Positions 509 through 19,449 of a stretch of 54,201 bases of DNA are shown here, in pieces (the stretch's first letter is position 1; each line of letters opens with the position of its first letter). The stretch comes from Rhodothermales bacterium. GTDB taxonomy: Bacteria > Bacteroidota > Rhodothermia > Rhodothermales > JAHQVL01. The notes beneath the pieces are model-generated. The model saw only the letters and a list, made by a program, of their open reading frames with translations. It made no database searches and was not told the origin of the DNA. Both the position numbers and the translations under genes were made by a program. Where the stretch lies: contig JBGSPJ010000401.1 of assembly GCA_041738655.1 (NCBI GenBank), positions 1-54,201 of the forward strand, written 5' to 3'.

Positions 509-2380
509 ATGCACGCAGACAGGCCGAGCTTCCACGATGCGCTCGAACGGGACGAAACCGGGCCCGCCGAAGTCGGCGAACGCATCCTGCACGGGATCGG
601 CGTTTCGCAGGGCATCGCTATCGGCCCCGTATATCTCTATGCCCGGGAAGCGCTCGACGTGCAGCGGCACGATCTGCCCGAGGGCGATGTCGAGGCAGAA
701 GTCGAACGGTTTCTGAACGCCGTTGCGAGTGCGGAGCGGGAGCTGGAGAAGATCGCCTCGGTGGCCCGCGAAAAGCTCGGGGATACGAGCGCCGGCATCT
801 TCATGGCGCAATCCCTGATGCTGCAGGATATCGCCTTCCAAGAGGAAGTCATTGATCGCATTCGGGGCGAGCGGATCAATGCGGGTTATGTGGTCAAATC
901 CGCTATCACGGAGAGCCGGCAACGGATGGAGTCCAGCGAAAGCGAGTATATCCGCGAGCGCGCCAACGATTTACTGGATGTCCAGGATCGGATCATCCGC
1001 AACCTCCGCCGGGGCAAGCTGATCTCGGCCATCGAGCCGGAGACGGTGGTGGTGGCGGAAAACCTGACGGCCGCTGATGTACTCCTCTTCAGCCGGCGCA
1101 ACATCCGGGGGTGCGCCACCGATTTCGGAGGGCCGACATCGCATGTTTCGATCATGGCGCGTGCGCTCGGCGTGCCGGCCGTGGTGAGCATGCACCGCCT
1201 CAGCCGCGAAGTAGAGCAGGGAGACCGTGTCGTCCTGGACGGCTTCAACGGACGCGTCATCGTAAACCCCTCGCGCAAAACGCTGAAGGTCTACGAACGG
1301 CTGCGGGAGCGTTACCAGCGGCTCCTCAAAGAGCAACGCGCCTATATCCCCCTCGCTTCCGAAACCCGTGATGGGCTGCACGTGGCGCTGCGCGCCAATC
1401 TGGAATTCAAAGAAGAGATCGAATTGGTCGAGGAATTCGGGGCTGAGGGTATCGGGTTGTTTCGGACCGAGTTTCTGTTTCTCATGCGGGGCACGCTCAG
1501 CTGTACCGAGGATGAGCAATATGCCACGTATCGAGACATCGTGCTGGCCAACCGAGGCGGGCCTACCACCTTGCGGCTGCTCGATCTCGGGGGCGACAAG
1601 ATGTTGCCGATGGCCCATCGCGAGCACAACCCGTTTCTTGGATGGCGTGGCATCCGGGTGCTGCTGGACAAACGGGAGGACTTGCTGCTGCCTCAGTTGC
1701 GGGCTATCCTCCGCGCCAGTGCCCACGGACCGGTCCGCATCCTCGTACCGATGATCACCGATCTGTCCGAGGTGATGCAGCTCAAACAGCTCCTCGTAGA
1801 GGTCAAGGCGGCGTTGCGCAAGGAAGGGCATGCCTTTGACGAGGCGATACCCTTCGGAATCATGGTCGAGGTACCGGCCGTGGCGCTGGCCGCGGAACGG
1901 TTCGCGCGTGAGGTGGATTTTTTTTCCATCGGTACAAACGATCTCACGCAGTACGTGCTGGCGGTTGATCGTGGCAACGACCTCGTTTCGGGCCTTTACC
2001 AGGCGCTCCACCCGTCCGTGTTGCTTCTGATCGCCAAAATTGTGGAGGCGGCGGAACAGGAGGGTATCCCGGTTAGTGTGTGCGGGGAATTGGCGGCCGA
2101 CCCTCGGGCCATCCCCGTTCTGGTGGGGCTCGGGGTACACGAACTGAGCGCCGCGCCCATCTTTTTGCCCGAGATCAAACGCGTGATCCGGTCGATGGAA
2201 CGACAGGAAGCTGTGCTTCTGGCGCAGGAAATGATGCAGACACATGACCAGAAGACGCGCACGCGGATCCTGTTGGGCTGGCTGAAAGACCGAGATATCG
2301 ATTATTTCCAGTTCATACGGGAAGACCCGGAAGGCGCCGCCGGCGCCGACGCAGCGTCTCCCCAGGCCTCTCTCACGTGA
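509..2380 (+). CDS. ptsI: Phosphoenolpyruvate-protein phosphotransferase (PTS Enzyme I)
   Basis: 623 aa. Phospho-His motif GGPTSHVSIMARALGVPAV. PEP-utilising C-terminal motifs FFSIGTNDLTQY and VCGELA. The N-terminus is about 25 aa longer than a typical EI, so the start is uncertain. Confidence 0.92.
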   Translation: MHADRPSFHDALERDETGPAEVGERILHGIGVSQGIAIGPVYLYAREALDVQRHDLPEGDVEAEVERFLNAVASAERELEKIASVAREKLGDTSAGIFMAQSLMLQDIAFQEEVIDRIRGERINAGYVVKSAITESRQRMESSESEYIRERANDLLDVQDRIIRNLRRGKLISAIEPETVVVAENLTAADVLLFSRRNIRGCATDFGGPTSHVSIMARALGVPAVVSMHRLSREVEQGDRVVLDGFNGRVIVNPSRKTLKVYERLRERYQRLLKEQRAYIPLASETRDGLHVALRANLEFKEEIELVEEFGAEGIGLFRTEFLFLMRGTLSCTEDEQYATYRDIVLANRGGPTTLRLLDLGGDKMLPMAHREHNPFLGWRGIRVLLDKREDLLLPQLRAILRASAHGPVRILVPMITDLSEVMQLKQLLVEVKAALRKEGHAFDEAIPFGIMVEVPAVALAAERFAREVDFFSIGTNDLTQYVLAVDRGNDLVSGLYQALHPSVLLLIAKIVEAAEQEGIPVSVCGELAADPRAIPVLVGLGVHELSAAPIFLPEIKRVIRSMERQEAVLLAQEMMQTHDQKTRTRILLGWLKDRDIDYFQFIREDPEGAAGADAASPQASLT

Positions 2381-2477
2381 TGCATCAGCGGGTCCGCCCT
2401 GGCCGGCCCGGCGCCGTTCTTGTTGCTCCCTTCCCATGATCCAGTCAGGCGTCGCCTGACCCCAGTGAATCGTACCT

Positions 2478-3548
2478 ATGCAATCCAAAACGAATCTGTC
2501 GCTTTCCGATATTCGCCGTACCGACACCCGGGGCATGTATGACCTCGTCGCCGGTTTCCCCGATCATTTCAAGCAGGGCCGCGCCATCGCCGAGGCCGTC
2601 TCCCTCTCGATAGACGCCAGGGCCATGCGGCAGCTGGTCGTGATCGGGATGGGAGGATCGGCCATCTCCGGGGACTTGCTCCGCTGTTACGGGGTCGATC
2701 AGTCGCCCATCCCGATCCAGGTAGTCCGCAATTATGCCCTGCCGGCGTCAGTCGACCGTCAAACCCTGGTCGTGGCCTCCAGCTTTTCGGGCAACACCGA
2801 GGAATCGCTGGCCGGCTTTGAGGAAGCCATGGCGCGTAAAGCCACCGTCGTGTGCATCGCGTCCGGGGGCCAACTGTTGGATCTGGCCCGGAAGCACGGG
2901 CTCCCGTATGCGCAGATTCCAGGCGGCATGCCGCCCCGCGCCGCGCTGGGGTATTCGCTCGCGGTGTTGATGGTGTTCGCCCGGAAGATGGGCGTCATCC
3001 AGGTGCCCGATGAGGCGTGGGACGAGGCGGATTCGCTCCTCCGGATGCAGACGGCGCTCTACGGCGACCCTACGTCGGCACACCTCGCCCGGACGGTCGC
3101 CGACGGCGTCGTCGGCCGGCTGCCGGTTGTGTACAGCTCTCTGGGGCTGCTCGAAGCCGTCAACCTCCGCTGGCGCGGTCAATTTCAGGAAAACAGCAAG
3201 ATGCTGGCCGCCGGCAACCTCTACCCCGAACTGAATCACAACGAAATCATGGGCTGGGAGCAGACGGGCGCCTCTTCCCTCCAGAGCCAGATGGGCGTGA
3301 TTGTCCTGCGCGACCGCGAGGACCATCCCCGCATCCAGCACCGGATGGACGTGACGCGATCGCTCATCCAGTCGCGCGCCGGCAGCTGGACCGAAGTGTC
3401 GACCTCGGGCGAACATCGCCTCACCCGGATGGTGTCGCTGGTCAATCTTGGCGATTGGGCCAGCCTCTACGCGGCCTATGTTCGCGCCGTGGACCCGACG
3501 CCGATCGGCCTCATCGACCAGCTGAAGGACGCGTTGGCCAACGTTTGA
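2478..3548 (+). CDS. Bifunctional phosphoglucose/phosphomannose isomerase (SIS-domain PGI/PMI family)
   Basis: 356 aa. SIS-domain motifs VIGMGGSAISGDLL and SFSGNTEE. Size and layout fit the small PGI/PMI family. Confidence 0.75.
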   Translation: MQSKTNLSLSDIRRTDTRGMYDLVAGFPDHFKQGRAIAEAVSLSIDARAMRQLVVIGMGGSAISGDLLRCYGVDQSPIPIQVVRNYALPASVDRQTLVVASSFSGNTEESLAGFEEAMARKATVVCIASGGQLLDLARKHGLPYAQIPGGMPPRAALGYSLAVLMVFARKMGVIQVPDEAWDEADSLLRMQTALYGDPTSAHLARTVADGVVGRLPVVYSSLGLLEAVNLRWRGQFQENSKMLAAGNLYPELNHNEIMGWEQTGASSLQSQMGVIVLRDREDHPRIQHRMDVTRSLIQSRAGSWTEVSTSGEHRLTRMVSLVNLGDWASLYAAYVRAVDPTPIGLIDQLKDALANV

Positions 3549-3816
3549 CGCTGGCCCGGGGGCACCGGTCGCGAAGTTACTCGCCCCGGTGCTCCTGCCC
3601 GGTGGCCCGACGCCAGCAACAGTTGGCCGATCGTCGGGGCCAATCAGTAGGTGTTGGTGGCGGTTCGAGCGTAATATCCCTGGCTGGCTGACGACACAGC
3701 GGGGGAACGAGAATTGCCTCTGCTTCGTTGCCAGAAAACAAGAAATGGTGAAGCCCTCGGCGGGGCGCTGGCGTTCCGCGCGAAAGGGGCTCACTCACCT
3801 TCAGGATCCGTGCACC

Positions 3817-6768
3817 ATGGCGACATTTCGGCAGGGCGTTGCTACGCTACTTCTCGGGTTTTTGTGCGTCATCCAGCCGGCACAGGCCCAGTATCACTTC
3901 GGCCGCAATAAAATCCAGTACGAAAACTTCGACTGGCAGGTGCTGAAGACCGAGCACTTCGACGTGCTCTATTACCCCGAGATGCAGGAGCTCGCGGAGT
4001 ACGGGGCGCAATTCGCCGAAACCGTGTATGCCGAGCTAGAGAACCGATTCAACTATACCCTCAACCACCGCGTCCCGCTCATTTTTTATTCGTCTAACCT
4101 CCATTTCAAGCAGACAAATACCACCTCAGGCTTTATTCCAGACGGGGTAGGCGGCTTCTTTGAGTTTTTGAAGGGTCGCGTCGTTATTCCCGCCAACGGC
4201 GACATTCACAAATTCCGCCGGGTGATCCGGCACGAGCTCGTCCACGTATTCACGTTTGTGAAGGTCCTGCGCGTGATGAAGGAGTACCGACTTCCGGCCA
4301 ATCGCCTGCCGCCGCTGTGGTTCACCGAAGGGCTGGCCGAGTACTGGTCGGGCGAACCGGACTACCAGCACGAGATGGTCATGCGTGATGCCATCTTCTC
4401 GAACTACCTCGTGCCTCTGGAGAGCATGCACCGCATCAACGGCACGTACCTCATGTACAAAGAGGGCGAGGCCGTATTTCGATTTATCTCCGATACTTAC
4501 GGGGAGGAAAAAATCCTCCGGATGATTGACAACTTCTGGAAAGAGACGGATTTCCGGAAAGTGCTCGAACTCACGTTGCACGAGGATTTCAGCCGCATCT
4601 CGGATCGGTGGGTCGCGTGGATGAAGGAGCGGTATTACCCGGAACTGGAGACGACGGCGCCGCCCTCGCTGGTGTCGAAGCCGCTCTCACGGCCGGGATT
4701 TAGTTCGAAGCCGGCGTTCTACGAATTTGTAGACGGCACGCGCAAGGTGTATTACATCGCCAACCGGACGGGCTATACCAATCTTTATGAAGTCGAGCTC
4801 GATTCGCTCTTCCGGCCGGCCGGGAAGGAACGCGTGCTGATCAAGGGCGAGCGCGACCAACGCTTCGAAGCGTTCCATTTTTTTGAGAGCCGAACCAGTG
4901 TCTCGGCCGATGGCAAACTCGCGTTTGTCACGAAAAGCGGCGGGAGCAATAGCCTCCATGTTTACGACCTCGTGGCCGACCGACTGGCGGCCTCGTATCA
5001 GTTCAATGACCTGATCGCGGTCTACTCGCCCACCTGGGATCCAGAGGGTGAAGAGCTGGCCTTTACGTCGATCGATCGTAGCGGATTTAATGACCTGTAT
5101 CGTTTCGACACGCGTACGGAGACGCTGGTCAAGCTGACCAACGACAGCTACGACGAACGCGACCCGTCCTGGAGCCCGGATGGTCGGCACATCGCGTTTT
5201 CATCCGATCGTACCTCGTTGGGTGATGCCGGCGCGTACAACCTCTTTACATTCGGAGTGGATGACGGATCGATCCGGTACGTCACCTTTGGTACGCAGCA
5301 CGATTTCTCGCCGCAATGGACGCCCGACGGGCGATTCCTGCTGTACACGAGCGCGCGTAGGGACAGCGTGGGCCGTTTCGGGCCACAAAACATCTGGGCG
5401 ATCGACATGACGGCGGAAATCGGCGTCCCGCCGGCGGTAGCGTCCGCTTCGCTCGCGCCCATCGACGACCTGCCCACCGCGCCCACGATGACGCGGACGG
5501 CCAGCCGGCTCACGGACATCACCACGGCGGCCTACGACCCGGTATGGACTCGCGACGGCCAAATAGTGTTCACCAGCTTCGAACAGCTGAGCTTCACAAT
5601 TCGGACACTCGCCAGCGCCGACTCGTTGCTCCAACATCCCAACACGGAGATCGAACATCCCGTCACCCTCACGGGCGAGCACTGGGCGTTCGAACGGATC
5701 GACGCGGAAAGCGAGGTCACGCGAAATCCCTACAAGCGTAAGTACTCGCTTGATGTCGCCCAGGGCATGGTCAGCCAGAATCAGGTGTTGGGGACCTACG
5801 GCGGCGCCATTGTCGCCGTGTCGGACTTGATGAGCAACGATCGGTGGTTTCTCACGCTCTTTAATCTCGGGCGCTCCCGGCAGGACTTCCTCCAGAGCAT
5901 GAACGTGGCCGTCACGCGCGTGCAAACCCACCGGCGTACCAACTACTCGTACGGCCTGTACCGCTACGGAGGGGAACGCTACGATATCACCGACCCGGAC
6001 GCTCCGACGAGTTTTCCTTTTGTGTTCGAAACGATGTATGGGGGCGTCGGCGCCGTGAGTTATCCCATCTCCATGTTCCAGCGCGTCGAGTTGAGCACTT
6101 CGCTCAACTGGAACCGGCGCGAGATCCCCGTTCAGCAGATCGATCGGGAAGCCATCCTGCTTTCTAATACGATCTCGCTGGTCCACGACAATACGCTCTA
6201 CGGCATGAACGGCCCGGTGCAGGGCTGGCGCGCCAATCTGACGGCCGGCTATACGTCGGACGTGCGGTACTCCAACGTCAACTACTTTAGCCTCATGGCG
6301 GATGTGCGGTACTACTTCCGCTTGACCCGTCAGCTCACCTTCGCGTCCCGCCTGGTGGGCCGGCTCAACGAAGGACGCGAGGCACGGCTCTTTATCCTGG
6401 GCGGCAGCTGGGACCTGCGTGGGCAGAGCCTCTTTAGCGTCCGCGGTAAGAAGATGTGGTTCGTCTCCAACGAACTACGCTTCCCCATCCTGAACAATCC
6501 GACCCTCTATATCCCCGTCCTTGCGCCGTTTGGGGTGGCCAATTTGCGAGGCGCGGCTTTTTTTGATGCCGCCCATGCCTGGAATGACGGCTACAACGTC
6601 GCCCAGCCGAATATCCGAACCGGTCAGACGCTCGGTGCGGTGGGCTTAGGGTTACGGATGAATCTGTTTGGCGGCATTGTGTTGCGGTACGATCTCGGTT
6701 ACTCTTACCGCGATTGGGTGCCATCGGACCGGCTGTTCCGGCAATTCTTCTTCGGATATGACTTCTAG
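3817..6768 (+). CDS. Outer-membrane fusion protein: signal peptide, HExxH (MA-type) metallopeptidase-like domain, PD40/TolB-like beta-propeller repeats, Omp85 (bacterial surface antigen) beta-barrel
   Basis: Start set at the ATG at 3817, which gives the signal peptide MATFRQGVATLLLGFLCVIQPAQA. HELVH at 4231-4245 with downstream FTEGLAEYW. Four PD40-like repeats (SPTWDPEGEELAFTS, DPSWSPDGRHIAFSS, FSPQWTPDGRFLLYTS, YDPVWTRDGQIVFTS). The C-terminal ~340 aa is barrel-like and ends in FFFGYDF with a terminal Phe. Confidence 0.8.
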   Translation: MATFRQGVATLLLGFLCVIQPAQAQYHFGRNKIQYENFDWQVLKTEHFDVLYYPEMQELAEYGAQFAETVYAELENRFNYTLNHRVPLIFYSSNLHFKQTNTTSGFIPDGVGGFFEFLKGRVVIPANGDIHKFRRVIRHELVHVFTFVKVLRVMKEYRLPANRLPPLWFTEGLAEYWSGEPDYQHEMVMRDAIFSNYLVPLESMHRINGTYLMYKEGEAVFRFISDTYGEEKILRMIDNFWKETDFRKVLELTLHEDFSRISDRWVAWMKERYYPELETTAPPSLVSKPLSRPGFSSKPAFYEFVDGTRKVYYIANRTGYTNLYEVELDSLFRPAGKERVLIKGERDQRFEAFHFFESRTSVSADGKLAFVTKSGGSNSLHVYDLVADRLAASYQFNDLIAVYSPTWDPEGEELAFTSIDRSGFNDLYRFDTRTETLVKLTNDSYDERDPSWSPDGRHIAFSSDRTSLGDAGAYNLFTFGVDDGSIRYVTFGTQHDFSPQWTPDGRFLLYTSARRDSVGRFGPQNIWAIDMTAEIGVPPAVASASLAPIDDLPTAPTMTRTASRLTDITTAAYDPVWTRDGQIVFTSFEQLSFTIRTLASADSLLQHPNTEIEHPVTLTGEHWAFERIDAESEVTRNPYKRKYSLDVAQGMVSQNQVLGTYGGAIVAVSDLMSNDRWFLTLFNLGRSRQDFLQSMNVAVTRVQTHRRTNYSYGLYRYGGERYDITDPDAPTSFPFVFETMYGGVGAVSYPISMFQRVELSTSLNWNRREIPVQQIDREAILLSNTISLVHDNTLYGMNGPVQGWRANLTAGYTSDVRYSNVNYFSLMADVRYYFRLTRQLTFASRLVGRLNEGREARLFILGGSWDLRGQSLFSVRGKKMWFVSNELRFPILNNPTLYIPVLAPFGVANLRGAAFFDAAHAWNDGYNVAQPNIRTGQTLGAVGLGLRMNLFGGIVLRYDLGYSYRDWVPSDRLFRQFFFGYDF

Positions 6769-7933
6769 CCCCTCTGCGGCAGCGGCCCTCGCGACGGTCG
6801 TTCTCGCGTGTTGCCTTGCCGGCTGTAACTCGTTTTCCTACAAGACGCGCCCCATCTCGCCCGACGACTGGATCGCGTCCGGGGCCGATCTTGCCCGAAC
6901 TTCCATGGCCGACTGGCGGCTCGAACCGCCACTCGAAAAAGCCTGGGAATTCGATGTGGGCGCCGGTACAGGTCCGGGCTCGGTGCTGGTCGCCGGCGAT
7001 CTGGTCCTCGTGGCCAATCGGAAGGGGCAGCTCCTGGCACTTGATATAGAAAAGGGCAAACGGGTAGGGCGCCAGCGATTCAACGCTCCTGTCGAGGGTG
7101 GAATGGGCATTGCCGGGACGATGTTGCTTGTGCCAGGAGCCAAACGAAAAGAGTCCGTAACGGCCTTTGACCTCGTGCGTGGCAAGGAAGCCTGGAAAGT
7201 ACGCGAGGGTTCGGTGGAATCCGGCGTGCTCGCGCTCGATTCCCTGGCGGTCGTGATCGACGCACAGGCCATGCTGCGGGTTGTCGAGGTGCGGAGCGGT
7301 GAAGAGCGATGGACACACGCGCTTGATTCGATGGCGTACATCCTGAGCACGCCTGTCGCCGAAGGCTCCGTGGTCTATGCGGCGAACGAGGAGGGGGTGG
7401 TGTTTGCAGTGGATGTAGTTCGGCAGATGCGCCTCTGGCGGCGGGATCTGAACACGCCCGTGCTTCAGTCCCTGGGTATTGGCGCCGGTCTGATCCTCGT
7501 GCCCACCACGCGCGGCCGGCTCTATGGGCTGGACGCCCGCACGGGCGAGACGCGGTGGACCTTCGCGTTGCCCGATACGACCGTTCGCTTCTCGGCCACG
7601 GCATTCGATTCACGCGACGGCGTCGCCGCCGTGGGAACGACCGACGGGCACGTCCGGGCGATTCGCGCCGAGACGGGCGTGGAGATGTGGGTCGCCAATG
7701 TGGGGGATCCAGTGACGGCTGCCCCGTTAATGACGCAACAGACCGTGTATGCCGGCACGCTCGGCCGGCAGTTGATCGCCCTTGATCGAAATACGGGCCT
7801 CAAGCTCTGGGATTTTACGATGCCAGGACGGGTCCAATCCGCCATGGCCGCCACCGAGGACATGCTGTTTGTCTTGTCGGAACCGCAACGCCTCGTCGCC
7901 TTCCGCATCGCGGAGGCGGCGATAACCGAGTAA
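6758..7933 (+). CDS. BamB-like PQQ-type beta-propeller lipoprotein
   Basis: The ATG at 6758 overlaps the upstream stop by 11 nt. Lipobox LAGC follows a hydrophobic signal (AAALATVVLACCLAGCNS). Repeated propeller blades (YAANEEGVVFAVD, GRLYGLDARTGETRW, GHVRAIRAETGVEMW, RQLIALDRNTGLKLW). Confidence 0.75.
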   Translation: MTSSPSAAAALATVVLACCLAGCNSFSYKTRPISPDDWIASGADLARTSMADWRLEPPLEKAWEFDVGAGTGPGSVLVAGDLVLVANRKGQLLALDIEKGKRVGRQRFNAPVEGGMGIAGTMLLVPGAKRKESVTAFDLVRGKEAWKVREGSVESGVLALDSLAVVIDAQAMLRVVEVRSGEERWTHALDSMAYILSTPVAEGSVVYAANEEGVVFAVDVVRQMRLWRRDLNTPVLQSLGIGAGLILVPTTRGRLYGLDARTGETRWTFALPDTTVRFSATAFDSRDGVAAVGTTDGHVRAIRAETGVEMWVANVGDPVTAAPLMTQQTVYAGTLGRQLIALDRNTGLKLWDFTMPGRVQSAMAATEDMLFVLSEPQRLVAFRIAEAAITE

Positions 7934-7938
7934 TCGAG

Positions 7939-8742
7939 ATGAACCGTTTCCCGAGTTTTGTCGCGACCCGTCTGGTCGGGTGGCTTGCGGTCGGCCTCCT
8001 GATGCTCGCCCTGCCGGCGACGACGCGCGCGCAGGAGTATGCCGTAGTTTCTGTCGAAAGTAACACCGCTGATGCGCTCGTCTACGCGGATTCGCTCTAC
8101 CTGGGGCGGGCGCAGACACAGTGGTTTTTTGTGCCCAGAGAAACGGCGCAACTCCGCCTTGTCTACCCGTCGGGAGATAGCTGGTCGATGACGCCCGCGC
8201 AACTTCCCGTGGATCTACGCACGGTGGATACGCTGCGGGTCACGCTGGATTTTATGTACCACTACGCGATCACCACGGACCCGTTTGATGCCAGCGTGTT
8301 GCTCGAAACGCCGGATGGGCGTTCGTTGCTGGGCACAACACCGCTGCTCCACACGTCGTCCGAGCCTTTGCAGGGGATGCTGTTGTTGCAGAAGGAGGGC
8401 TACGCGTTGAAGCGGCTTACCCCCGGTGATCGCATCTGGAACCGGCATGACGAGAGCCTCACGCCGGAGGCGCCGGACCTGGCCCTCGACGCGGTCGGCG
8501 AACTGGACCGCGGGCCGCGTGGGCGCTGGCTGAATCTGGCGTTGGGCGGTGCCGCCGTTGCTTCGGGTGTTCTGGCCGTTCATTTCAAGATGAAGGCCGA
8601 CGCCCGGTATGATCTCTATGCGGTTGACGGCGACCCACGGCTCCGCGGTAGCTTCGAGCGGTTTGACCGCCGCGCCGCGGTGGCGCTTGGTGCCATGCAG
8701 GTTGGGGTTGGCGTCCTTGCGATCCGTCTCGTGCGTCAGTAG
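7939..8742 (+). CDS. Secreted/membrane-anchored PEGA-like domain protein (hypothetical)
   Basis: Starts 5 nt after the upstream stop. Signal-like N-terminus (LVGWLAVGLLMLALPATTRAQE). PEGA-like segments (VYADSLYLGRA, DASVLLETPDGRSLLGTTPLL). Two C-terminal hydrophobic helices. Confidence 0.5.
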   Translation: MNRFPSFVATRLVGWLAVGLLMLALPATTRAQEYAVVSVESNTADALVYADSLYLGRAQTQWFFVPRETAQLRLVYPSGDSWSMTPAQLPVDLRTVDTLRVTLDFMYHYAITTDPFDASVLLETPDGRSLLGTTPLLHTSSEPLQGMLLLQKEGYALKRLTPGDRIWNRHDESLTPEAPDLALDAVGELDRGPRGRWLNLALGGAAVASGVLAVHFKMKADARYDLYAVDGDPRLRGSFERFDRRAAVALGAMQVGVGVLAIRLVRQ

Positions 8743-10193
8743 GCGCCGGAGCCTTTCAGGACGGCCGTGATGGTGCGGACAAGAATCACGGCGTCCAGCC
8801 AGAGCGACCAGTTGCGGACGTAGTAGGGATCCCACTGCTCCATTCCCTCGTTGCCGGTGTCGCTTCGCCCGGATACCTGCCAGAGCCCGGTGATGCCCGG
8901 TCGGACGCGCTCGCGCAGCTCGCGGACGCGTCGTGGAAGTTCGTTGCAGTGGTAGGTGGGGAGAGGGCGTGGGCCTACGAGCGACATCTCGCCCCGCAGC
9001 ACGTTGATCAGCTGCGGGAGTTCATCCAGGCTGAGCCGGCGGAGAAGCCGGCCTATTTTGGTGATGCGCGGGTCCTTGCGCAGCTTGTAAAACGTCTCCC
9101 ACTCCGTCCGCATCGCTTCGTCAGTTTCCAGCTTCTGCCGCAGCACGGCTTCCGCGTTGGGCACCATCGTGCGGAATTTGAACGTGCGAAACATCTTGCC
9201 CCCGCGGCCGACCCGCTCCTGCAGGAAGAACGGGCTCTGGCGGTCCTCGAACCAGATCAAGAACGCCAGCGTCGCGCAGATGGGAAACCAGATCAGGCTC
9301 GTCAACAGGACGACCATCACGTCGAACGTGAGCTTGGCGAACCGGGAGACCGGGTTGATGAGGTTGGAAGTGATCTCGAGCCCCAGCATCCCGCTCAGGT
9401 CGCGGGGTTTTACCCAGAGCGAAGGCGATTCCAGGAGATCCGGCACCAGCAGCACCGTGCGGTAGTAGGATAGCGGCCCTTCCAATAACTCCGTGGCGCG
9501 CGCGCTGGACATGCTGGGCATGGCAAGGATGGCGACGGAGGCTTCCGGCGTCACAAGGTTTGTCCCGCCTTCGATCGGTACATTAAGGAGCGCGGTATTC
9601 CAGGAAGAGGGATCGTCGTCGAAGATGCCAATCGGCTTGTAGCCCAGGCCTTTTTCTGCCTGGAGGAAGCGGACGATCCGCTCGGCGAAGTCACCGCCCC
9701 CGTAGATGACTGTGGGCAGCCCCCAGACGCCCAGCCGGATCAGCAAGTATTTCACCATCATCCGCATGAACGGAACGGTTACCACGCTGAACAGGAAGGA
9801 GAGGGTGAGGGTGATACGGCTTACGGATTCAGAGGCTTTGCTGATAAATAGCACGACGGCGGCGCCGGCGAATATTACGATCAACAGGAGCACCGTCCGT
9901 CGGAGTTCCTCCACCGGCCCGAGTCCCCAGCTGGGCAAAAGGTGCGTGATGGCCGTGCCGACCCACCAGGCCGGGATCAGATACCAGGCCCATTCCGGGA
10001 TGAGGAGGGCGCCCTGCCAGAACAGACGGATCGAGCCGGCCAGGAGAAAGGCGAACACGATAGCGATCATGTCGCTCGCGGCGAGCACGAGCACATTCTG
10101 CAGACGATGTCTGAGGTAAGAGACCAGCCATTCCCCTCGACGCGGAAGCCGCTCGTAGAAGGAGCGTTCAGAAAGTACCTCAACAAGTTCCAT
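8736..10193 (-). CDS. Polyprenyl-phosphate hexose-1-phosphate transferase (WbaP-type priming sugar transferase)
   Basis: 485 aa. N-terminal multi-TM region. C-terminal bacterial sugar transferase domain (FRTFKFRTM, LDELPQLINVLRGEMSLVGPRP, RPGITGLWQVSGRSD). Confidence 0.88.
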   Translation of the reverse strand: MELVEVLSERSFYERLPRRGEWLVSYLRHRLQNVLVLAASDMIAIVFAFLLAGSIRLFWQGALLIPEWAWYLIPAWWVGTAITHLLPSWGLGPVEELRRTVLLLIVIFAGAAVVLFISKASESVSRITLTLSFLFSVVTVPFMRMMVKYLLIRLGVWGLPTVIYGGGDFAERIVRFLQAEKGLGYKPIGIFDDDPSSWNTALLNVPIEGGTNLVTPEASVAILAMPSMSSARATELLEGPLSYYRTVLLVPDLLESPSLWVKPRDLSGMLGLEITSNLINPVSRFAKLTFDVMVVLLTSLIWFPICATLAFLIWFEDRQSPFFLQERVGRGGKMFRTFKFRTMVPNAEAVLRQKLETDEAMRTEWETFYKLRKDPRITKIGRLLRRLSLDELPQLINVLRGEMSLVGPRPLPTYHCNELPRRVRELRERVRPGITGLWQVSGRSDTGNEGMEQWDPYYVRNWSLWLDAVILVRTITAVLKGSGAY

Positions 10194-13157: not shown

Positions 13158-14885
13158 TCAGGCGCCCGCTTTCAGGAAGCCGAGTTCGAAGAGCTTCTGG
13201 AGGACCTTCTCCGCGCTCTCGTCGATCGTTTCCTTCTCGGTGACGCAAACCACTTCGGCATTGGTCGGAGCCTCGTACGGATCGTCGATCCCCGTGAAGC
13301 CCTTGATCAGGCCGGCGCGTGCCTTCGCGTAGAGGCCTTTCGTGTCGCGGCTCTCGCACACTTCAACCGACGCTTCGACGTACACCTCGATGTAGCCGCC
13401 ATACGCGCCGATCGCGGCGCGGTTGGCCTGGCGGTCGGCTTCGTACGGAGCGATCGGAGCGCTGAGGCAGATGCCGCGGTGCTTCGTGATTTCGCTGGCG
13501 ACGTAGCCGATGCGCTGGACGTTGATCGAGCGGTCCTCCTTCGTAAAGCCGAGGCCCTTCGTGAGGTGGGTCCGGACGACGTCGCCGTCGAGCAGGGTGA
13601 CCGGCCGGCCCGAGTGTTCGAGCAAGCGCGTCATGAGCGCGTTCGCGATGGTCGACTTCCCGGAGCCCGAGAGACCCGTGAAGAAGACGGTGAAGCCCTG
13701 CTGGTGCTTCGGCGGGTGCGTCGTGCGCAGCTCCTCGACGATGTCCGGGTAGGAGAACCAGGCCGGGATTTCGTCGCCGTCCTGCAGGCGCTTGCGCAGC
13801 TCGGTGCCCGAGATGTCCAACGTCTTCTCGCCTTCCTTGATTTCGTCGACGGGTTTGTAGGTGTCCAGCGCGGGCACGTACACCATCATCTTGAAGTCGA
13901 GCATCTTGATGCCGAGTTCGGCTTCATGCTTCGAAACGAGCTCCTGGGCGTCGTACGGTCCGTAGAACGACTTGCCGGTGCTGTCGTTGCCCGGGCCGGC
14001 GTGGTCGCGGCCGACGATCAGGTGCGTGCAACCGTAGTTCTTGCGGATGATCGCATGCCACACGGCCTCGCGCGGGCCGCCCATGCGCATCGCGAGCGGC
14101 AACAGGCTCAGGTGCGCCCGGTTGCCCGGGTAGTGGGTGACGAGCTTCTTGTAGCAGCGGACGCGCGTGAAGTAGTCGATGTCTCCCGGCTTCGTCAACC
14201 CGACGACCGGGTGGATGAGCAGGTGCCCGCCGACTTCGGCCGCGGCGCGGTCAGTCAGCTCTTTGTGGGCGCGGTGCATCGGGTTACGCGTCTGGAAGGC
14301 GACGACCTTTTCGGCCTGACGGGCTTCCAGTTCGACGCGGAGGGCGCGCGGCGTGTGGCGCAGCTCCATGAAGTCGTAGTGGATCGGCAGGCGCACGCCT
14401 TCGAGGGTGCCGCCGATGTAGTAGTCGCCGGCCTGGTCGAACAGGTAGGCCACCGCCGGGTGCTTCTTATCGAGCGAGCCGAAGACCTTCTTGGCTTCGT
14501 TCTCCTTGTTCGGCTTCCAAACGTCGGAAACCGTGATCAGCGCGATCAGGAGGCCCGTCGGGTCGCGGAGGGCGATTTTCTCGCCGCCTTTGTAGTCCTT
14601 CGCGATGGCTTCGGCCACATCCAGCGTGATCGGCATCGGCCACAACGTGCCGTCGGCGAGGCGCATTGATTCGACGACCTGGTCGTAATCCTTCTGCGAC
14701 ATGAAGCCGCGCAACGGCGAGAAGCCTCCGTTGAGAAGCAGCTCGATATCGCACAGCTGGCGCGCGTTCAGGGTGATGGAGGGGAGTTTGATGGCTTCCT
14801 GCAGCGCGGCTTCCAATTTCTTGTCCTTCAACAGGAGCTCGCAAAGTTCACCACCGTGGGGTTCGATCAGGGTCAACGTACTCAT
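13158..14885 (-). CDS. sat/cysC: Bifunctional sulfate adenylyltransferase / adenylylsulfate kinase (PAPS synthesis)
   Basis: Start set at the ATG at 14885 (MSTLTLIEPHGGEL). N-terminal ATP sulfurylase (QTRNPMHRAHKELT). C-terminal APS kinase with an intact P-loop (FFTGLSGSGKST) and LLDGDVVR. Confidence 0.9.
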   Translation of the reverse strand: MSTLTLIEPHGGELCELLLKDKKLEAALQEAIKLPSITLNARQLCDIELLLNGGFSPLRGFMSQKDYDQVVESMRLADGTLWPMPITLDVAEAIAKDYKGGEKIALRDPTGLLIALITVSDVWKPNKENEAKKVFGSLDKKHPAVAYLFDQAGDYYIGGTLEGVRLPIHYDFMELRHTPRALRVELEARQAEKVVAFQTRNPMHRAHKELTDRAAAEVGGHLLIHPVVGLTKPGDIDYFTRVRCYKKLVTHYPGNRAHLSLLPLAMRMGGPREAVWHAIIRKNYGCTHLIVGRDHAGPGNDSTGKSFYGPYDAQELVSKHEAELGIKMLDFKMMVYVPALDTYKPVDEIKEGEKTLDISGTELRKRLQDGDEIPAWFSYPDIVEELRTTHPPKHQQGFTVFFTGLSGSGKSTIANALMTRLLEHSGRPVTLLDGDVVRTHLTKGLGFTKEDRSINVQRIGYVASEITKHRGICLSAPIAPYEADRQANRAAIGAYGGYIEVYVEASVEVCESRDTKGLYAKARAGLIKGFTGIDDPYEAPTNAEVVCVTEKETIDESAEKVLQKLFELGFLKAGA

Positions 14886-14898
14886 CCTTTCCTTTTGG

Positions 14899-15684
14899 TT
14901 ATCGTTTCGTGTTGATGCCTTTCTTCGCACGCTGTCCGAGCAACTGACGCAAAAACAGCACGACAAAGCGAGGGTTGTGCTTCAAATATCGTTTCCAGAG
15001 CCGCCCGGGCTCCATAGCCAGGCGGAAGGCCCATTCCAGACCCATTCGTTGGATCAGGCTCGGGGCCTGGCGCACGCGTCCCGTATGAAAATCGAACGCG
15101 GCGCCGACGCCCAGCATGACGGCGTTTATGGTGTCCTTGTGCTCCGCCATCCACTTTTCCTGTTTGGGGCAACCGATGCCAACAAACAGGATTCGGACGC
15201 CGGACGCATTGATTTCCTGAATATACCGAGCGTCCTCTTCCTGCGTGGGCGGGCGGAAGGGGGGCGCGATTTTGCAGCCGATCCGGGTGCCGGCAAACCG
15301 CTGCGTCAGGAAGGTTTCGAAAGCGTCGAGGCTTTCCGGCGTGCCGCCATAGAGCCCGATCGGTATGCGCTGCTGCGCGGCTGCTTCGCAGACGTGCAAC
15401 GTCAGATCGGGCCCGTATACCCGGGTGGCTTCCTCGACGCCCATCAGGCGCAGCGCCCAAACGAGGGGTACGCCGTCCGGGGTGACGAGGTCCGCGCCGT
15501 TCACGATTCGCCCGAAAGCGGGGTCATCGTGAGTCTCCATCACCATGTGCACGTTCGCGGCACAAACGATCCGCGAACGCCCTTCGCGCGCCCAATTGAC
15601 CACTTTTTGCGTCGCATCGGGATAACTCGTCACATCAACCTGCATGGTGAGGATGGTGCGACTGTCCCTTGGGGCGGAGTACAT
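14899..15684 (-). CDS. WecB/TagA/CpsF-family glycosyltransferase (GT26)
   Basis: 261 aa. Family-typical VTPDGVPLVWA, ILFVGIGCPKQEKW and LGVGAAFDF motifs. Confidence 0.85.
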   Translation of the reverse strand: MYSAPRDSRTILTMQVDVTSYPDATQKVVNWAREGRSRIVCAANVHMVMETHDDPAFGRIVNGADLVTPDGVPLVWALRLMGVEEATRVYGPDLTLHVCEAAAQQRIPIGLYGGTPESLDAFETFLTQRFAGTRIGCKIAPPFRPPTQEEDARYIQEINASGVRILFVGIGCPKQEKWMAEHKDTINAVMLGVGAAFDFHTGRVRQAPSLIQRMGLEWAFRLAMEPGRLWKRYLKHNPRFVVLFLRQLLGQRAKKGINTKR

Positions 15685-19248: not shown

Positions 19249-19449
19249 AGGGGATGTGCGTGGCGCGTAATTTTGTAACGTCAGGGGAGCGATCACGGCG
19301 GCGGGGACCGGCGAGATCAGGGATGCGCGAAACAGGAGGGGGCTGCCGGCATCGGTGATACGATGACGGCAGCCCCATGCAGAATTGTGCCAAACTTGCA
19401 GCGCCTCACCCGGGATGGCGCATCTGTTTCTAGATCGGCGCTAAAAACG

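What the first reader, a model, noticed from the sequence alone, without database searches (positions are those of the whole stretch)
3817..8742. Three-gene envelope module: protease-propeller-Omp85 fusion, BamB-like lipoprotein and PEGA protein
Gene 1 replaces the POTRA arm of an Omp85 barrel with an MA-type HExxH domain (HELVH at 4231-4245, plus TEGLAEY) and four or more PD40/TolB-type blades (about 4690-5580). The barrel occupies about 5740-6765. Gene 2 is a PQQ-propeller lipoprotein of BamB type, and its ATG overlaps gene 1's stop by 11 nt. Gene 3 is a PEGA-like protein with C-terminal TM helices that starts 5 nt after gene 2. All three carry export signals. The combination of a periplasm-facing metalloprotease, a peptide- or glycan-binding propeller and an Omp85 barrel, coupled to a BamB-like partner, looks like a dedicated outer-membrane processing, quality-control or secretion machine. 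I know of no described function for this architecture. It lies immediately adjacent to the polysaccharide locus and convergent with it; the stops overlap at 8736-8742.
Basis: partly seen in the sequence, partly recalled or inferred. Interest (0 to 1): 0.65.

Follow-up and report, generated by a model that had tools for sequence, protein, structure and literature searches.

The report
Protease-tipped Omp85 outer-membrane module
A conserved three-gene operon encodes an outer-membrane Omp85 barrel whose usual docking arm is replaced by an intact zinc protease and a propeller, a BamB-like lipoprotein and a membrane-anchored PEGA protein; the fusion was listed in 2014, but nobody knows what it does.

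Summary

- **Gene 1 (3817-6768, 983 aa):** signal peptide, gluzincin peptidase, TolB/tricorn-type propeller, then an Omp85 barrel with no POTRA domain.
- **Gene 2 (6758-7933):** a BamB-like PQQ-propeller lipoprotein. Its ATG overlaps the stop of gene 1.
- **Gene 3 (7939-8742):** signal peptide, two PEGA domains and a C-terminal hydrophobic helical hairpin.

Conservation is strong. H139, E140, H143, E171 and E175 are identical in all 76 orthologues compared. The peptidase is the best-conserved part of the protein.

The order g1-g2-g3 holds in every clade of the 80 related loci except one. These loci come from Rhodothermales, Ignavibacteriota, Calditrichota and KSB1. The neighbouring polysaccharide locus is never conserved with the module, so that adjacency is incidental.

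The fusion is not new. It is the 'WD40-like Omp85' subfamily of Heinz & Lithgow (2014), who already recorded an aminopeptidase-like hit. I found no functional study of it and no description of the operon partners.

My best reading is a periplasm-facing, outer-membrane-tethered proteolytic machine for unfolded envelope proteins. That part is inference, at about 0.4 confidence.

The parts
3817..6768 (+). Gene 1: peptidase-propeller-Omp85 fusion, 983 aa
   Evidence: ORF and translation; Pfam and NCBIfam domains; more than 4850 homologues with the same architecture
3817..3891 (+). Signal peptide of gene 1 (aa 1-25, MATFRQGVATLLLGFLCVIQPAQAQ)
   Evidence: Read from the translation. No position in this stretch is conserved, unlike the invariant mature N-terminus FGRNKxQY that follows
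3892..4686 (+). Gluzincin (clan MA) peptidase domain, aa 26-290
   Evidence: Peptidase_MA_2 above its cut-off. AF2 domain model: pLDDT 77, pTM 0.78. All 50 best Foldseek PDB hits are M9, M1, M61 or other metallopeptidases. 24.5% of positions are at least 95% identical across 76 orthologues
4138..4185 (+). Invariant motif P-x-G-V-G-G-F-F-E-F-x-K-G-R-V-V (aa 108-123), upstream of the active-site helix
   Evidence: G112, G113, F114, E116, K119, G120, R121, V122 and V123 are identical in 76 of 76 sequences. AF2 confidence is low here. A role as substrate-binding strand or flap is inferred
4231..4245 (+). HExxH zinc-binding and catalytic motif (H139 E140 L V H143)
   Evidence: H139, E140 and H143 are identical in 76 of 76 orthologues. 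The motif lies on predicted helix 130-156
4324..4344 (+). TEGLAEY: helix carrying the presumed third zinc ligand E171, plus E175
   Evidence: E171, G172, A174 and E175 are identical in 76 of 76. The motif lies on predicted helix 167-177
4699..5661 (+). TolB/tricorn-type beta-propeller (aa 295-615), about six blades
   Evidence: PD40 69.6 bits. TIGR02800 TolB 88.5 bits. PDB profile hit to TolB at 9e-28. Foldseek best hit TolB at 1e-12. pLDDT 80-93. Precomputed Tricorn_N and Tricorn_2nd hits on the orthologue
5737..6765 (+). Omp85 16-strand barrel (aa about 641-983), with L6 motif GGSWDLRG (aa 862-869), LRYDLG (aa 956-961) and C-terminal FFFGYDF
   Evidence: PF01103 42.8 bits. Foldseek hits to BamA 9ccg and Toc75. 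The barrel profile hits F. nucleatum BamA at 7e-5 and aligns both motifs. Motif conservation. AF2 resolves only 14 strands, at pLDDT 45-73; the first two strands are inferred from sequence
6758..7933 (+). Gene 2: BamB-like eight-blade PQQ-propeller lipoprotein (391 aa, lipobox LAG|C)
   Evidence: PQQ_2 154.9 bits. TIGR03300 180.7 bits, below its cut-off. PDB BamB 4hdj at 6e-24. The lipobox is conserved in orthologues and no acidic export signal follows the Cys
6758..6768 (+). 11-nt overlap of the gene 2 start with the gene 1 stop (translational coupling)
   Evidence: Read from the sequence. Many orthologues of gene 2 start MGFL..., that is, inside the last codons of gene 1. The median g1-g2 offset is -12 nt in 55 loci
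7939..8742 (+). Gene 3: signal peptide, two PEGA domains (aa about 33-105 and 107-170), then two hydrophobic helices (aa about 197-216 and 246-264) joined by a conserved charged loop
   Evidence: Translation. PEGA in 26 of 27 orthologues. Conserved C-terminal consensus AAYFKxKADxxFxxY...LGxxQxxFGxL. Membrane topology is inferred

Best explanation
**What is shown.** This is a vertically inherited three-protein envelope module of the Fibrobacterota-Chlorobiota-Bacteroidota (FCB) superphylum.
- Gene 1 is an outer-membrane Omp85 barrel with the sequence hallmarks of a working Omp85: the L6 GGxxxLRG motif, the RYDxG motif and a C-terminal aromatic beta-signal.
- Its N-terminal arm is not POTRA. It is a catalytically intact gluzincin zinc peptidase followed by a TolB/tricorn-type propeller.
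- Gene 1 is translationally coupled to a BamB-like lipoprotein and co-operonic with a double-PEGA protein.

**What is inferred.**
- The peptidase-propeller arm hangs into the periplasm, as POTRA arms do.
- The lipoprotein sits on the inner face of the outer membrane.
- The PEGA protein is anchored in the inner membrane by its C-terminal helical hairpin and reaches toward the other two.
- Together they form an outer-membrane-tethered proteolytic machine. It processes or degrades unfolded envelope polypeptides, most plausibly beta-barrel proteins that fail to assemble and are caught at the Omp85 seam.
- The propellers act as a filter and scaffold that admit only unfolded chains to the active site, as in tricorn and S9 peptidases.
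For: **Architecture:**

**Active enzyme:** H139, E140, H143, E171 and E175 are identical in 76 of 76 orthologues at about 40% overall identity. The peptidase domain has 24.5% near-invariant positions, against 7.6% for the propeller and 15% for the barrel.

**This peptidase subfamily occurs almost only in the fusion:** 804 clusters at 50% identity reach E<=1e-30, and most of the best 150 listed are 900-1100 aa long.

**The barrel is not a decayed anchor:** the L6 and DxG motifs align to those of a solved BamA and are conserved.

**The genes form an operon:**
- Gene 2 directly follows gene 1 in 55 loci and gene 3 follows in 43-54 loci. The start and stop overlap.
- The order is kept in Rhodothermales, Ignavibacteriota, Calditrichota and KSB1.
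- It is also kept in an isolate genome with independent gene calls.
- The only loci without partners form a single clade.

**Periplasmic side:**
- Gene 2 has no acidic residue in the six positions after the lipid Cys. The stated surface-lipoprotein rule is at least two acidic residues there.
- Gene 3 has a signal peptide plus a hairpin of two hydrophobic helices.

**Housekeeping context:** the module sits in a conserved block with isoprenoid genes, ptsI and pgi.

**Precedent:** the M48 metalloprotease BepA acts on stalled substrates at the BAM complex (PMC13655028 listed).
Against: - No member of the family has been studied experimentally. I found no such paper.
- Topology was not tested. A type V-like export of the N-terminal arm cannot be excluded.
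- The barrel part of the AF2 model has low confidence (pLDDT 45-73, 14 of 16 strands), and I could not inspect domain packing.
- No substrate is encoded in the operon.
- One clade of gene 1 lacks adjacent partners. So the peptidase-Omp85 may work alone, or the partners lie elsewhere in those genomes.
- Physical interaction among the three proteins is inferred from gene order only.
- Foldseek E-values for the peptidase domain are weak (1e-3 to 5e-2), although the hits are unanimous.
Confidence: 0.4

Rival explanations
1. A specialised insertase or translocase. The Omp85 barrel, with a BamB-like helper and an inner-membrane partner, inserts or exports a particular class of cargo, as BAM, TAM or TpsB do. 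The peptidase acts as a maturation enzyme that removes a leader or pro-segment.
For: Functional Omp85 motifs are conserved. The BamB-like partner parallels BAM. An inner-membrane-anchored partner in the operon parallels TamA-TamB in concept.
Against: There is no POTRA domain and no BamD- or TamB-like gene. No conserved cargo gene lies nearby. The peptidase, not the barrel, is the most constrained part.
Confidence: 0.2
2. Type V-like surface display. The barrel exports its own N-terminal peptidase-propeller arm, as the patatin-Omp85 PlpD does. The arm then digests extracellular proteins or peptides for nutrition or surface remodelling.
For: An enzyme domain N-terminal to an Omp85 barrel is the layout of PlpD. 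About 27 residues lie between the last propeller strand and the presumed first barrel strand. Many organisms that carry the module are proteolytic heterotrophs (my own knowledge).
Against: PlpD-type proteins keep a POTRA domain, and this one has none. The linker is short and carries conserved residues W623 and Y639. The L6 plug motifs are intact. The lipoprotein partner lacks the surface-export signal, and gene 3 looks anchored in the inner membrane. Heinz & Lithgow list members from organisms I recall as autotrophs, but I did not verify that here.
Confidence: 0.15
3. A Tol-Pal-like cell-wall function. The TolB-type propeller binds a Pal/OmpA-like protein or peptidoglycan. The peptidase trims peptidoglycan peptides or lipoprotein tethers, and the PEGA protein links this to the inner membrane.
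For: TolB is the closest relative of the propeller by sequence and by fold. Heinz & Lithgow raised the TolB analogy.
Against: No TolB N-terminal domain was detected in the Pfam or NCBIfam scans. The catalytic domain resembles M9 and M1 peptidases that act on proteins and peptides. It does not resemble the usual peptidoglycan peptidase families M15, M23 or M14. No tol, pal or murein gene is conserved next to the partnered form.
Confidence: 0.1
4. The three genes are conserved neighbours but work independently. For example, gene 2 could serve the ordinary BAM complex.
For: One clade of gene 1 lacks the neighbours. The wider block also holds unrelated housekeeping genes.
Against: The start-stop overlap of g1 and g2 is kept across phyla. 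All other clades keep g2, and most keep g3, directly downstream. Studied Bacteroidota BAM complexes contain no BamB.
Confidence: 0.05

Closest known systems
'WD40-like' Omp85 subfamily (Heinz & Lithgow 2014, PMC4104836)
   Same: PD40/TolB-type propeller N-terminal to a PF01103 barrel. Their Table S3 also records an M1-aminopeptidase-like hit and lists Rhodothermus and Caldithrix members. Gene 1 belongs to this subfamily.
   Different: That paper gives no function. The passages I read say nothing about conservation of the catalytic site or about the BamB-like and PEGA operon partners. It likens the propeller itself to a fused BamB, whereas here a separate BamB-like gene follows.
BAM complex (BamA with BamB)
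   Same: Sixteen-strand Omp85 barrel with the L6 (V/I/L)RG(F/Y/W) and DxG motifs. An eight-blade PQQ-type propeller lipoprotein is the partner.
   Different: No POTRA domains and no BamD. The arm is a protease plus a TolB-type propeller. Gene 2 scores below the BamB equivalog cut-off. The POTRA3 site that binds BamB is absent.
BepA (and YcaL, LoiP): M48 zinc metalloproteases acting at BAM
   Same: An HExxH zinc protease placed at an Omp85 machine. It removes stalled outer-membrane proteins.
   Different: BepA is a soluble or peripheral M48 enzyme with a TPR domain. It is neither fused to the barrel nor a Peptidase_MA_2 member, and it has no propeller.
TAM (TamA-TamB)
   Same: An Omp85 protein co-operonic with an inner-membrane-anchored protein that extends into the periplasm.
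   Different: Gene 3 is a small double-PEGA protein, not a TamB/AsmA-like beta-taco. TamA has three POTRA domains.
PlpD / type Vd secretion
   Same: An enzyme domain fused N-terminally to an Omp85-type barrel.
   Different: PlpD has a patatin lipase and keeps a POTRA domain. Its passenger is exported. Export is not indicated here.
Tricorn protease and S9 (prolyl oligopeptidase-type) peptidases
   Same: A beta-propeller joined to a peptidase domain. Tricorn_N and Tricorn_2nd hits on the orthologue, and S9 propeller hits.
   Different: Those enzymes are serine peptidases and are soluble. Whether the propeller gates the active site here is inferred.
M9 collagenase and M1 aminopeptidase catalytic domains
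   Same: Best structural matches to the peptidase model are ColH, ColG, IRAP, PepN, F3 and LTA4H. It has HExxH plus a downstream Glu in an EGxAEY context.
   Different: No Pfam hit to Peptidase_M9 or Peptidase_M1. The HExxH-to-Glu spacing is 27 residues, against 18 in M1 (my own knowledge). There is no GxMEN motif; GGFFE stands in a comparable place.

Membership tests
Omp85 superfamily (PF01103) | C-terminal Omp85 barrel domain above the family threshold | tested here: met
   PF01103 42.8 bits against a cut-off of 24. Foldseek hits to BamA and Toc75. Barrel profile against F. nucleatum BamA, E 7e-5
Omp85 superfamily (PF01103) | Loop 6 (V/I)RG(F/Y) motif and its DxG partner motif | tested here: met
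   GGSWDLRG aligns to BamA GGGNSLRGY, and LRYDIG aligns to LRFDFG. L867, R868 and G961 are identical in 76 of 76; G869 in 71 of 76; D959 in 74 of 76. In this window the aromatic position after RG is Q870
BamA / TamA proper | One or more periplasmic POTRA domains | tested here: not met
   No POTRA (PF07244) hit at E<0.1. aa 26-615 are occupied by the peptidase and the propeller. TIGR03303 scores 23.6 bits against a cut-off of 297
WD40-like Omp85 subfamily (Heinz & Lithgow 2014) | PD40/TolB-like propeller repeats N-terminal to PF01103 | tested here: met
   PD40 plus PF01103 in one chain, the same Pfam combination as in their Table S2
WD40-like Omp85 subfamily (Heinz & Lithgow 2014) | Aminopeptidase-like region ahead of the propeller | tested here: met
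   Peptidase_MA_2. Foldseek hits include tricorn-interacting factor F3 and PepN, the same kind of hit as in their Table S3
Gluzincin (clan MA(E)) metallopeptidase | HExxH plus a downstream Glu as third zinc ligand | tested here: met
   H139, E140, H143 and E171 are identical in 76 of 76. That E171 is the ligand is inferred from the EGxAEY context
Gluzincin (clan MA(E)) metallopeptidase | Thermolysin-like fold (beta-sheet, active-site helix, helical C-subdomain) | tested here: met
   Domain model pLDDT 77. All 50 best PDB matches are metallopeptidases of families M9, M1 and M61, with TM about 0.5 but weak E-values of 1e-3 to 5e-2
Gluzincin (clan MA(E)) metallopeptidase | Zinc binding and peptidase activity | not testable with these tools
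   Needs purified protein
M1 aminopeptidase | GxMEN exopeptidase motif and Peptidase_M1 profile match | tested here: not met
   No Peptidase_M1 hit. The invariant GGFFE stands upstream in place of GxMEN
BamB (TIGR03300 equivalog) | Score above the curated equivalog cut-off | tested here: not met
   180.7 bits against 285.2; NF008351 103.6 against 423
BamB (TIGR03300 equivalog) | PQQ_2-type eight-blade propeller with an N-terminal lipobox | tested here: met
   PQQ_2 154.9 bits. PDB BamB 4hdj at 6e-24. LAG|C in the window, and a Gly-Cys lipobox in nearly all orthologues. The blade count is inferred from length
BamB (TIGR03300 equivalog) | Binds POTRA3 of BamA | not testable with these tools
   The operon partner has no POTRA. 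Binding to the organism's own BamA was not examined
PEGA domain protein (PF08308) | PEGA profile match | tested here: met
   Window protein 21.3 bits against 20.8, which is marginal. 26 of 27 orthologues match, best at 2e-20

The most novel reading that the evidence does not exclude
The module would be a distinct class of Omp85 machine beside BAM, TAM and TPS: a proteolytic one. Its barrel seam would capture the beta-signal of mis-assembled outer-membrane proteins. The tethered, propeller-gated zinc peptidase would then destroy them. A BamB-like scaffold and an inner-membrane PEGA tether would couple this to the rest of the envelope. It would then be a disposal arm of outer-membrane biogenesis in FCB bacteria, whose studied BAM complexes contain no BamB.
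Probability: 0.2. Interest if true: 0.8.

Novelty: new variant of a known kind. Interest (0 to 1): 0.55.

Why it matters
Omp85 proteins are the core of outer-membrane biogenesis in bacteria and organelles. Every studied member uses POTRA domains to receive its clients. Here the POTRA arm is replaced by a strictly conserved protease. The gene is also coupled to a BamB-like lipoprotein, in phyla where a recent structural paper says it is unclear whether BamB exists at all.

The family is large, at more than 4850 database proteins. It spans several phyla and sits among housekeeping genes. So its role is probably a core envelope function that has escaped study because no model organism carries it.

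Finding its substrates would show how these bacteria dispose of, or mature, envelope proteins. It could also reveal a new way in which an Omp85 barrel is used.

Tried and rejected
- **Link to the polysaccharide locus: rejected.** The convergent sugar transferase has no counterpart in any of the 80 related loci. The conserved neighbours are ptsI, pgi and isoprenoid genes.
- **PDB sequence search with the peptidase-domain profile:** no meaningful hit. The fold search was needed instead.
- **PDB sequence search with the gene 3 profile:** nothing.
- **Promoter and terminator scan of 2300-9000:** no more sites than in shuffled sequence. It does not cover Bacteroidota-type promoters.
- **Apparent g1-g2 fusion in L014:** an artefact of my ORF caller. 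Gene 1 ends in FFFGYDF followed by a stop there too.
- **Second (I/V)RG at aa 875-877:** I first took this as the loop 6 motif. The alignment to BamA shows the true equivalent is LRG at 867-869.
- **Cluster look-up of ten distant representatives:** gave almost no names or taxonomy.
- **Seven literature searches:** none found a functional study.
- **Rfam and tRNA scans:** nothing in or near the module.
- **Not possible or not done:** I had no access to model coordinates, so I could not inspect domain packing or the orientation of the arm relative to the barrel. I did not run a homologue search for gene 2.

Full report

Yes. The ORF table and translations give three same-strand genes.
- Gene 1 runs from 3817 to 6768 (983 aa).
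- Gene 2 runs from 6758 to 7933 (391 aa). Its ATG overlaps the gene 1 stop by 11 nt.
- Gene 3 runs from 7939 to 8742 (267 aa), starting 5 nt after gene 2.
- A convergent sugar-transferase gene (8736-10193, minus strand) overlaps the end of gene 3 by 7 nt.

Pfam puts gene 1 above the curated thresholds of three families:
- Peptidase_MA_2, aa 134-270, 37.1 bits against 32.4
- PD40, 69.6 bits
- Omp85 PF01103, aa 781-950, 42.8 bits against 24

There was no POTRA hit at E<0.1.

NCBIfam adds TolB for the propeller (88.5 bits) and weak Omp85, BamA and TamL hits for the barrel.

Gene 2 hits PQQ_2/BamB (154.9 bits) and TIGR03300 BamB. The TIGR03300 score of 180.7 bits is below the equivalog cut-off of 285.2, so gene 2 is BamB-like and not a certified BamB.

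The PEGA hit of gene 3 is marginal in the window (21.3 against 20.8). At family level, 26 of 27 orthologues match, the best at 2e-20.

The export signals are plain in the translations. Genes 1 and 3 have Sec signal peptides, and gene 2 has the lipobox LAG|C.

**2. Anatomy of gene 1**

*Full-length model.* An AlphaFold2 model built from 30 homologues has mean pLDDT 69.6 and pTM 0.60. It shows four parts:
- a mixed alpha/beta domain at aa 40-290, in which helix 130-156 carries HExxH and helix 167-177 carries TEGLAEY;
- a well-predicted propeller at aa 295-615 (pLDDT 80-93);
- a low-confidence stretch at aa 630-673;
- a beta-barrel to the C-terminus (pLDDT 45-73).

*Fold search of the whole model.* The best hits are TolB (E 1e-12) and S9 peptidase propellers. 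Fusobacterium BamA and Toc75 also appear.

*Peptidase domain.* The domain modelled alone has pLDDT 77 and pTM 0.78. It matches only metallopeptidases of the thermolysin-like kind: M9 collagenases ColH and ColG, M1 aminopeptidases (IRAP, PepN, ERAP2, factor F3, LTA4 hydrolase) and M61. The E-values are weak (1e-3 to 5e-2) and TM is about 0.5, but all 50 top hits agree. No solved structure is related by sequence.

*Barrel.* A barrel-only profile hits F. nucleatum BamA at 7e-5. It aligns GGSWDLRG to the BamA loop 6 motif GGGNSLRGY, and LRYDIG to LRFDFG. The protein ends in FFFGYDF, a typical C-terminal beta-signal.

AF2 resolves 14 strands. I infer two more in aa 643-671 from the alternating pattern and the conserved residues there.

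**3. Conservation**

A database search found more than 4850 relatives. The best 120 are all about 980-1000 aa with the same Pfam set. Their only names are 'BamA/TamA family outer membrane protein', 'Tol biopolymer transport system component' or 'hypothetical'.

The 80 loci kept come from these groups:
- Rhodothermales and Rubricoccaceae
- Ignavibacteriota
- Calditrichota
- KSB1
- assorted Bacteroidota MAGs

Across 76 full-length orthologues at about 40% identity:
- H139, E140, H143, E171 and E175 are identical in all.
- So are nine positions of an upstream motif, P-x-G-V-G-G-F-F-E-F-x-K-G-R-V-V.
- Near-invariant positions make up 24.5% of the peptidase domain, 7.6% of the propeller and 15% of the barrel.

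The enzyme is therefore under the strongest constraint and is almost certainly active.

Searching 1.84 billion representative proteins with the peptidase domain alone gave 804 clusters at E<=1e-30. Most of the best 150 listed are 900-1100 aa long. So this peptidase subfamily exists essentially only as the fusion.

**4. The operon**

tBLASTn, then HMMs built from the hits, place gene 2 directly after gene 1 and gene 3 directly after gene 2 in nearly every locus with enough flank. Independent clustering of ORFs gives gene 2 in 55 loci, with a median offset of -12 nt from gene 1, and gene 3 in 43 loci.

Many orthologues of gene 2 start MGFL..., which means the ATG lies inside the last codons of gene 1 (...FGxDF stop). 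The translational coupling seen in the window is therefore ancient.

An isolate genome, Rhodocaloribacter litoris, has the same three genes under independent gene calls.

Twelve loci lack the partners. In a neighbour-joining tree they form one clade. In nine of them gene 1 is followed by a convergent set: a flavoprotein, an unknown protein and YceG/MltG.

In one locus (L035), two type IX secretion cargo genes are inserted between genes 1 and 2.

The polysaccharide genes next to the module in this window are never conserved with it. What is conserved upstream, on the same strand, is a housekeeping block: a type 2 IPP isomerase-like gene, polyprenyl synthase, ptsI and pgi.

**5. The partners**

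*Gene 2.* Orthologues nearly always carry a Gly-Cys lipobox, and in the sequences I inspected the residues just after the Cys are rarely acidic. [quoted passage not shown] The same paper says it is unclear whether any Bacteroidota have BamB. By that rule gene 2 (C-NSFSYK) faces the periplasm. This assumes the rule holds in Rhodothermales.

*Gene 3.* Orthologues diverge fast (about 20-40% identity) and all are named hypothetical. They keep three things:
- a signal peptide;
- two PEGA domains;
- a C-terminal consensus AAYFKxKADxxFxxYxxTGD...LGxxQxxFGxL, that is, two Gly/Ala-rich hydrophobic helices around a charged loop.

I read this as an inner-membrane hairpin with the PEGA domains in the periplasm. 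That topology is inferred.

**6. How it most likely works**

*Shown:* an Omp85 barrel with intact functional motifs; an intact, highly constrained gluzincin site; a TolB/tricorn-like propeller between them; and two co-inherited, exported partners.

*Inferred:* the arm is periplasmic, as in other Omp85 proteins whose N-terminal domains precede strand 1. The lipoprotein and the PEGA protein bind it. The complex then degrades or processes unfolded envelope polypeptides.

Two analogies guide this reading:
- BepA, an HExxH protease that removes stalled substrates at BAM.
- Tricorn and S9 peptidases, where propellers restrict access to unfolded chains. The propeller of an orthologue carries precomputed Tricorn_N and Tricorn_2nd hits.

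Retention of the loop 6 lock argues that the barrel does more than anchor. So does a glycine three residues from the C-terminus, which in BamA is the position of the strand-16 kink needed for lateral gating (my own knowledge). I put this reading at about 0.4.

Rivals:
- a specialised insertase or translocase with a maturation protease (0.2);
- type V-like surface display of the arm (0.15);
- a Tol-Pal-like cell-wall role (0.1);
- mere neighbours (0.05).

Whether the enzyme is an endo- or exopeptidase is open. From memory, the 27-residue HExxH-to-Glu spacing and the upstream Gly-Gly resemble M9 collagenases more than M1 aminopeptidases. That is a lead, not a test.

**7. Comparison with what is known**

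Heinz & Lithgow (2014, PMC4104836) defined a 'WD40-like' Omp85 cluster.
- They noted TolB as the closest structure and called it reminiscent of a BamA-BamB fusion.
- Their supplementary tables list the Pfam combination PF01103 + PF07676.
- They give TolB as best propeller hit and M1 aminopeptidases (1z5h, 4kxd, 4fgm) as 'best aminopeptidase hit'.
- Listed members include two Rhodothermus marinus proteins and one from Caldithrix.
- A 2024 paper summarises the class as 'divergent WD40 and peptidase domains'.

So the fusion is catalogued and gene 1 is a member. It is not BamA or TamA, because the POTRA test failed.

I did not find any of the following in seven full-text searches:
- a function for the family;
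- an analysis of catalytic-site conservation;
- a mention of the BamB-like and PEGA partners.

That library misses most subscription-journal papers.

**8. Verdict**

The feature is real. The claim of novelty for the architecture does not hold, and the polysaccharide link is incidental.

The module is an uncharacterised, widely conserved variant of the Omp85 machines. It is of real interest to people who work on outer-membrane biogenesis. This particular window, however, is just one more member of a large family.

Interest is 0.55. Novelty: new variant of a known kind.

Noticed in passing
window 509-3548, and loci L001-L081 upstream of gene 1: A same-strand housekeeping block precedes the module in many Rhodothermales and Ignavibacteriota: a type 2 IPP isomerase-like gene, polyprenyl synthase, ptsI (PTS enzyme I) and a bifunctional PGI/PMI-type isomerase. 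pgi is found in 35 loci at a median gap of 41 nt, and ptsI in 29. Such deep conservation of gene order is unusual, and I have no explanation for it.
   Followed up: partly
L042, L047, L050, L051, L053, L054, L058, L064, L066, L070, L071, L074: One monophyletic clade of gene 1 orthologues has no gene 2 or 3 nearby. In nine of these loci, gene 1 is followed by a convergent flavoprotein, a 516-aa protein with no Pfam hit, and YceG/MltG. I do not know whether this clade is a paralogue or a broken operon.
   Followed up: partly
L035:3245-7498: Two type IX secretion cargo genes are inserted between gene 1 and gene 2 in one Ignavibacteriota MAG. One is a BNR/Ycf48-like propeller protein and the other an S8 subtilase. 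Both have Por_Secre_tail.
   Followed up: no
window 6424-6426 (aa 870 of gene 1): The loop 6 motif reads LRGQ in this window. The family has LRG followed by W, Y or F in 74 of 76 sequences. The next four residues (SLFS) also depart from the family consensus PRWS.
   Followed up: no
window 3898-3936 (aa 28-40 of gene 1): The mature N-terminus FGRNKxQYxxFxW is nearly invariant across phyla, yet AF2 models it with very low confidence. It could be a docking strand or an autoinhibitory segment.
   Followed up: no
window 8736-36391, minus strand: A large Wzx/Wzy-type polysaccharide locus. It holds an initiating sugar transferase, an epimerase, UDP-glucose dehydrogenase, WecG and GT4 glycosyltransferases, a Wzx-like flippase, a Wzy-like polymerase and a Wzz/tyrosine-kinase co-polymerase. 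A fused ATP sulfurylase/APS kinase (13158-14966) suggests a sulfated polymer.
   Followed up: partly
window 17131-19296, minus strand: A 721-aa right-handed beta-helix (NosD-like) protein ends in a type I dockerin domain. This is an unusual domain to find inside a polysaccharide locus.
   Followed up: no
window 28452-31229, minus strand: A 925-aa protein whose only Pfam hit is a weak PhoD-like phosphatase match over aa 597-742. The rest is unannotated.
   Followed up: no
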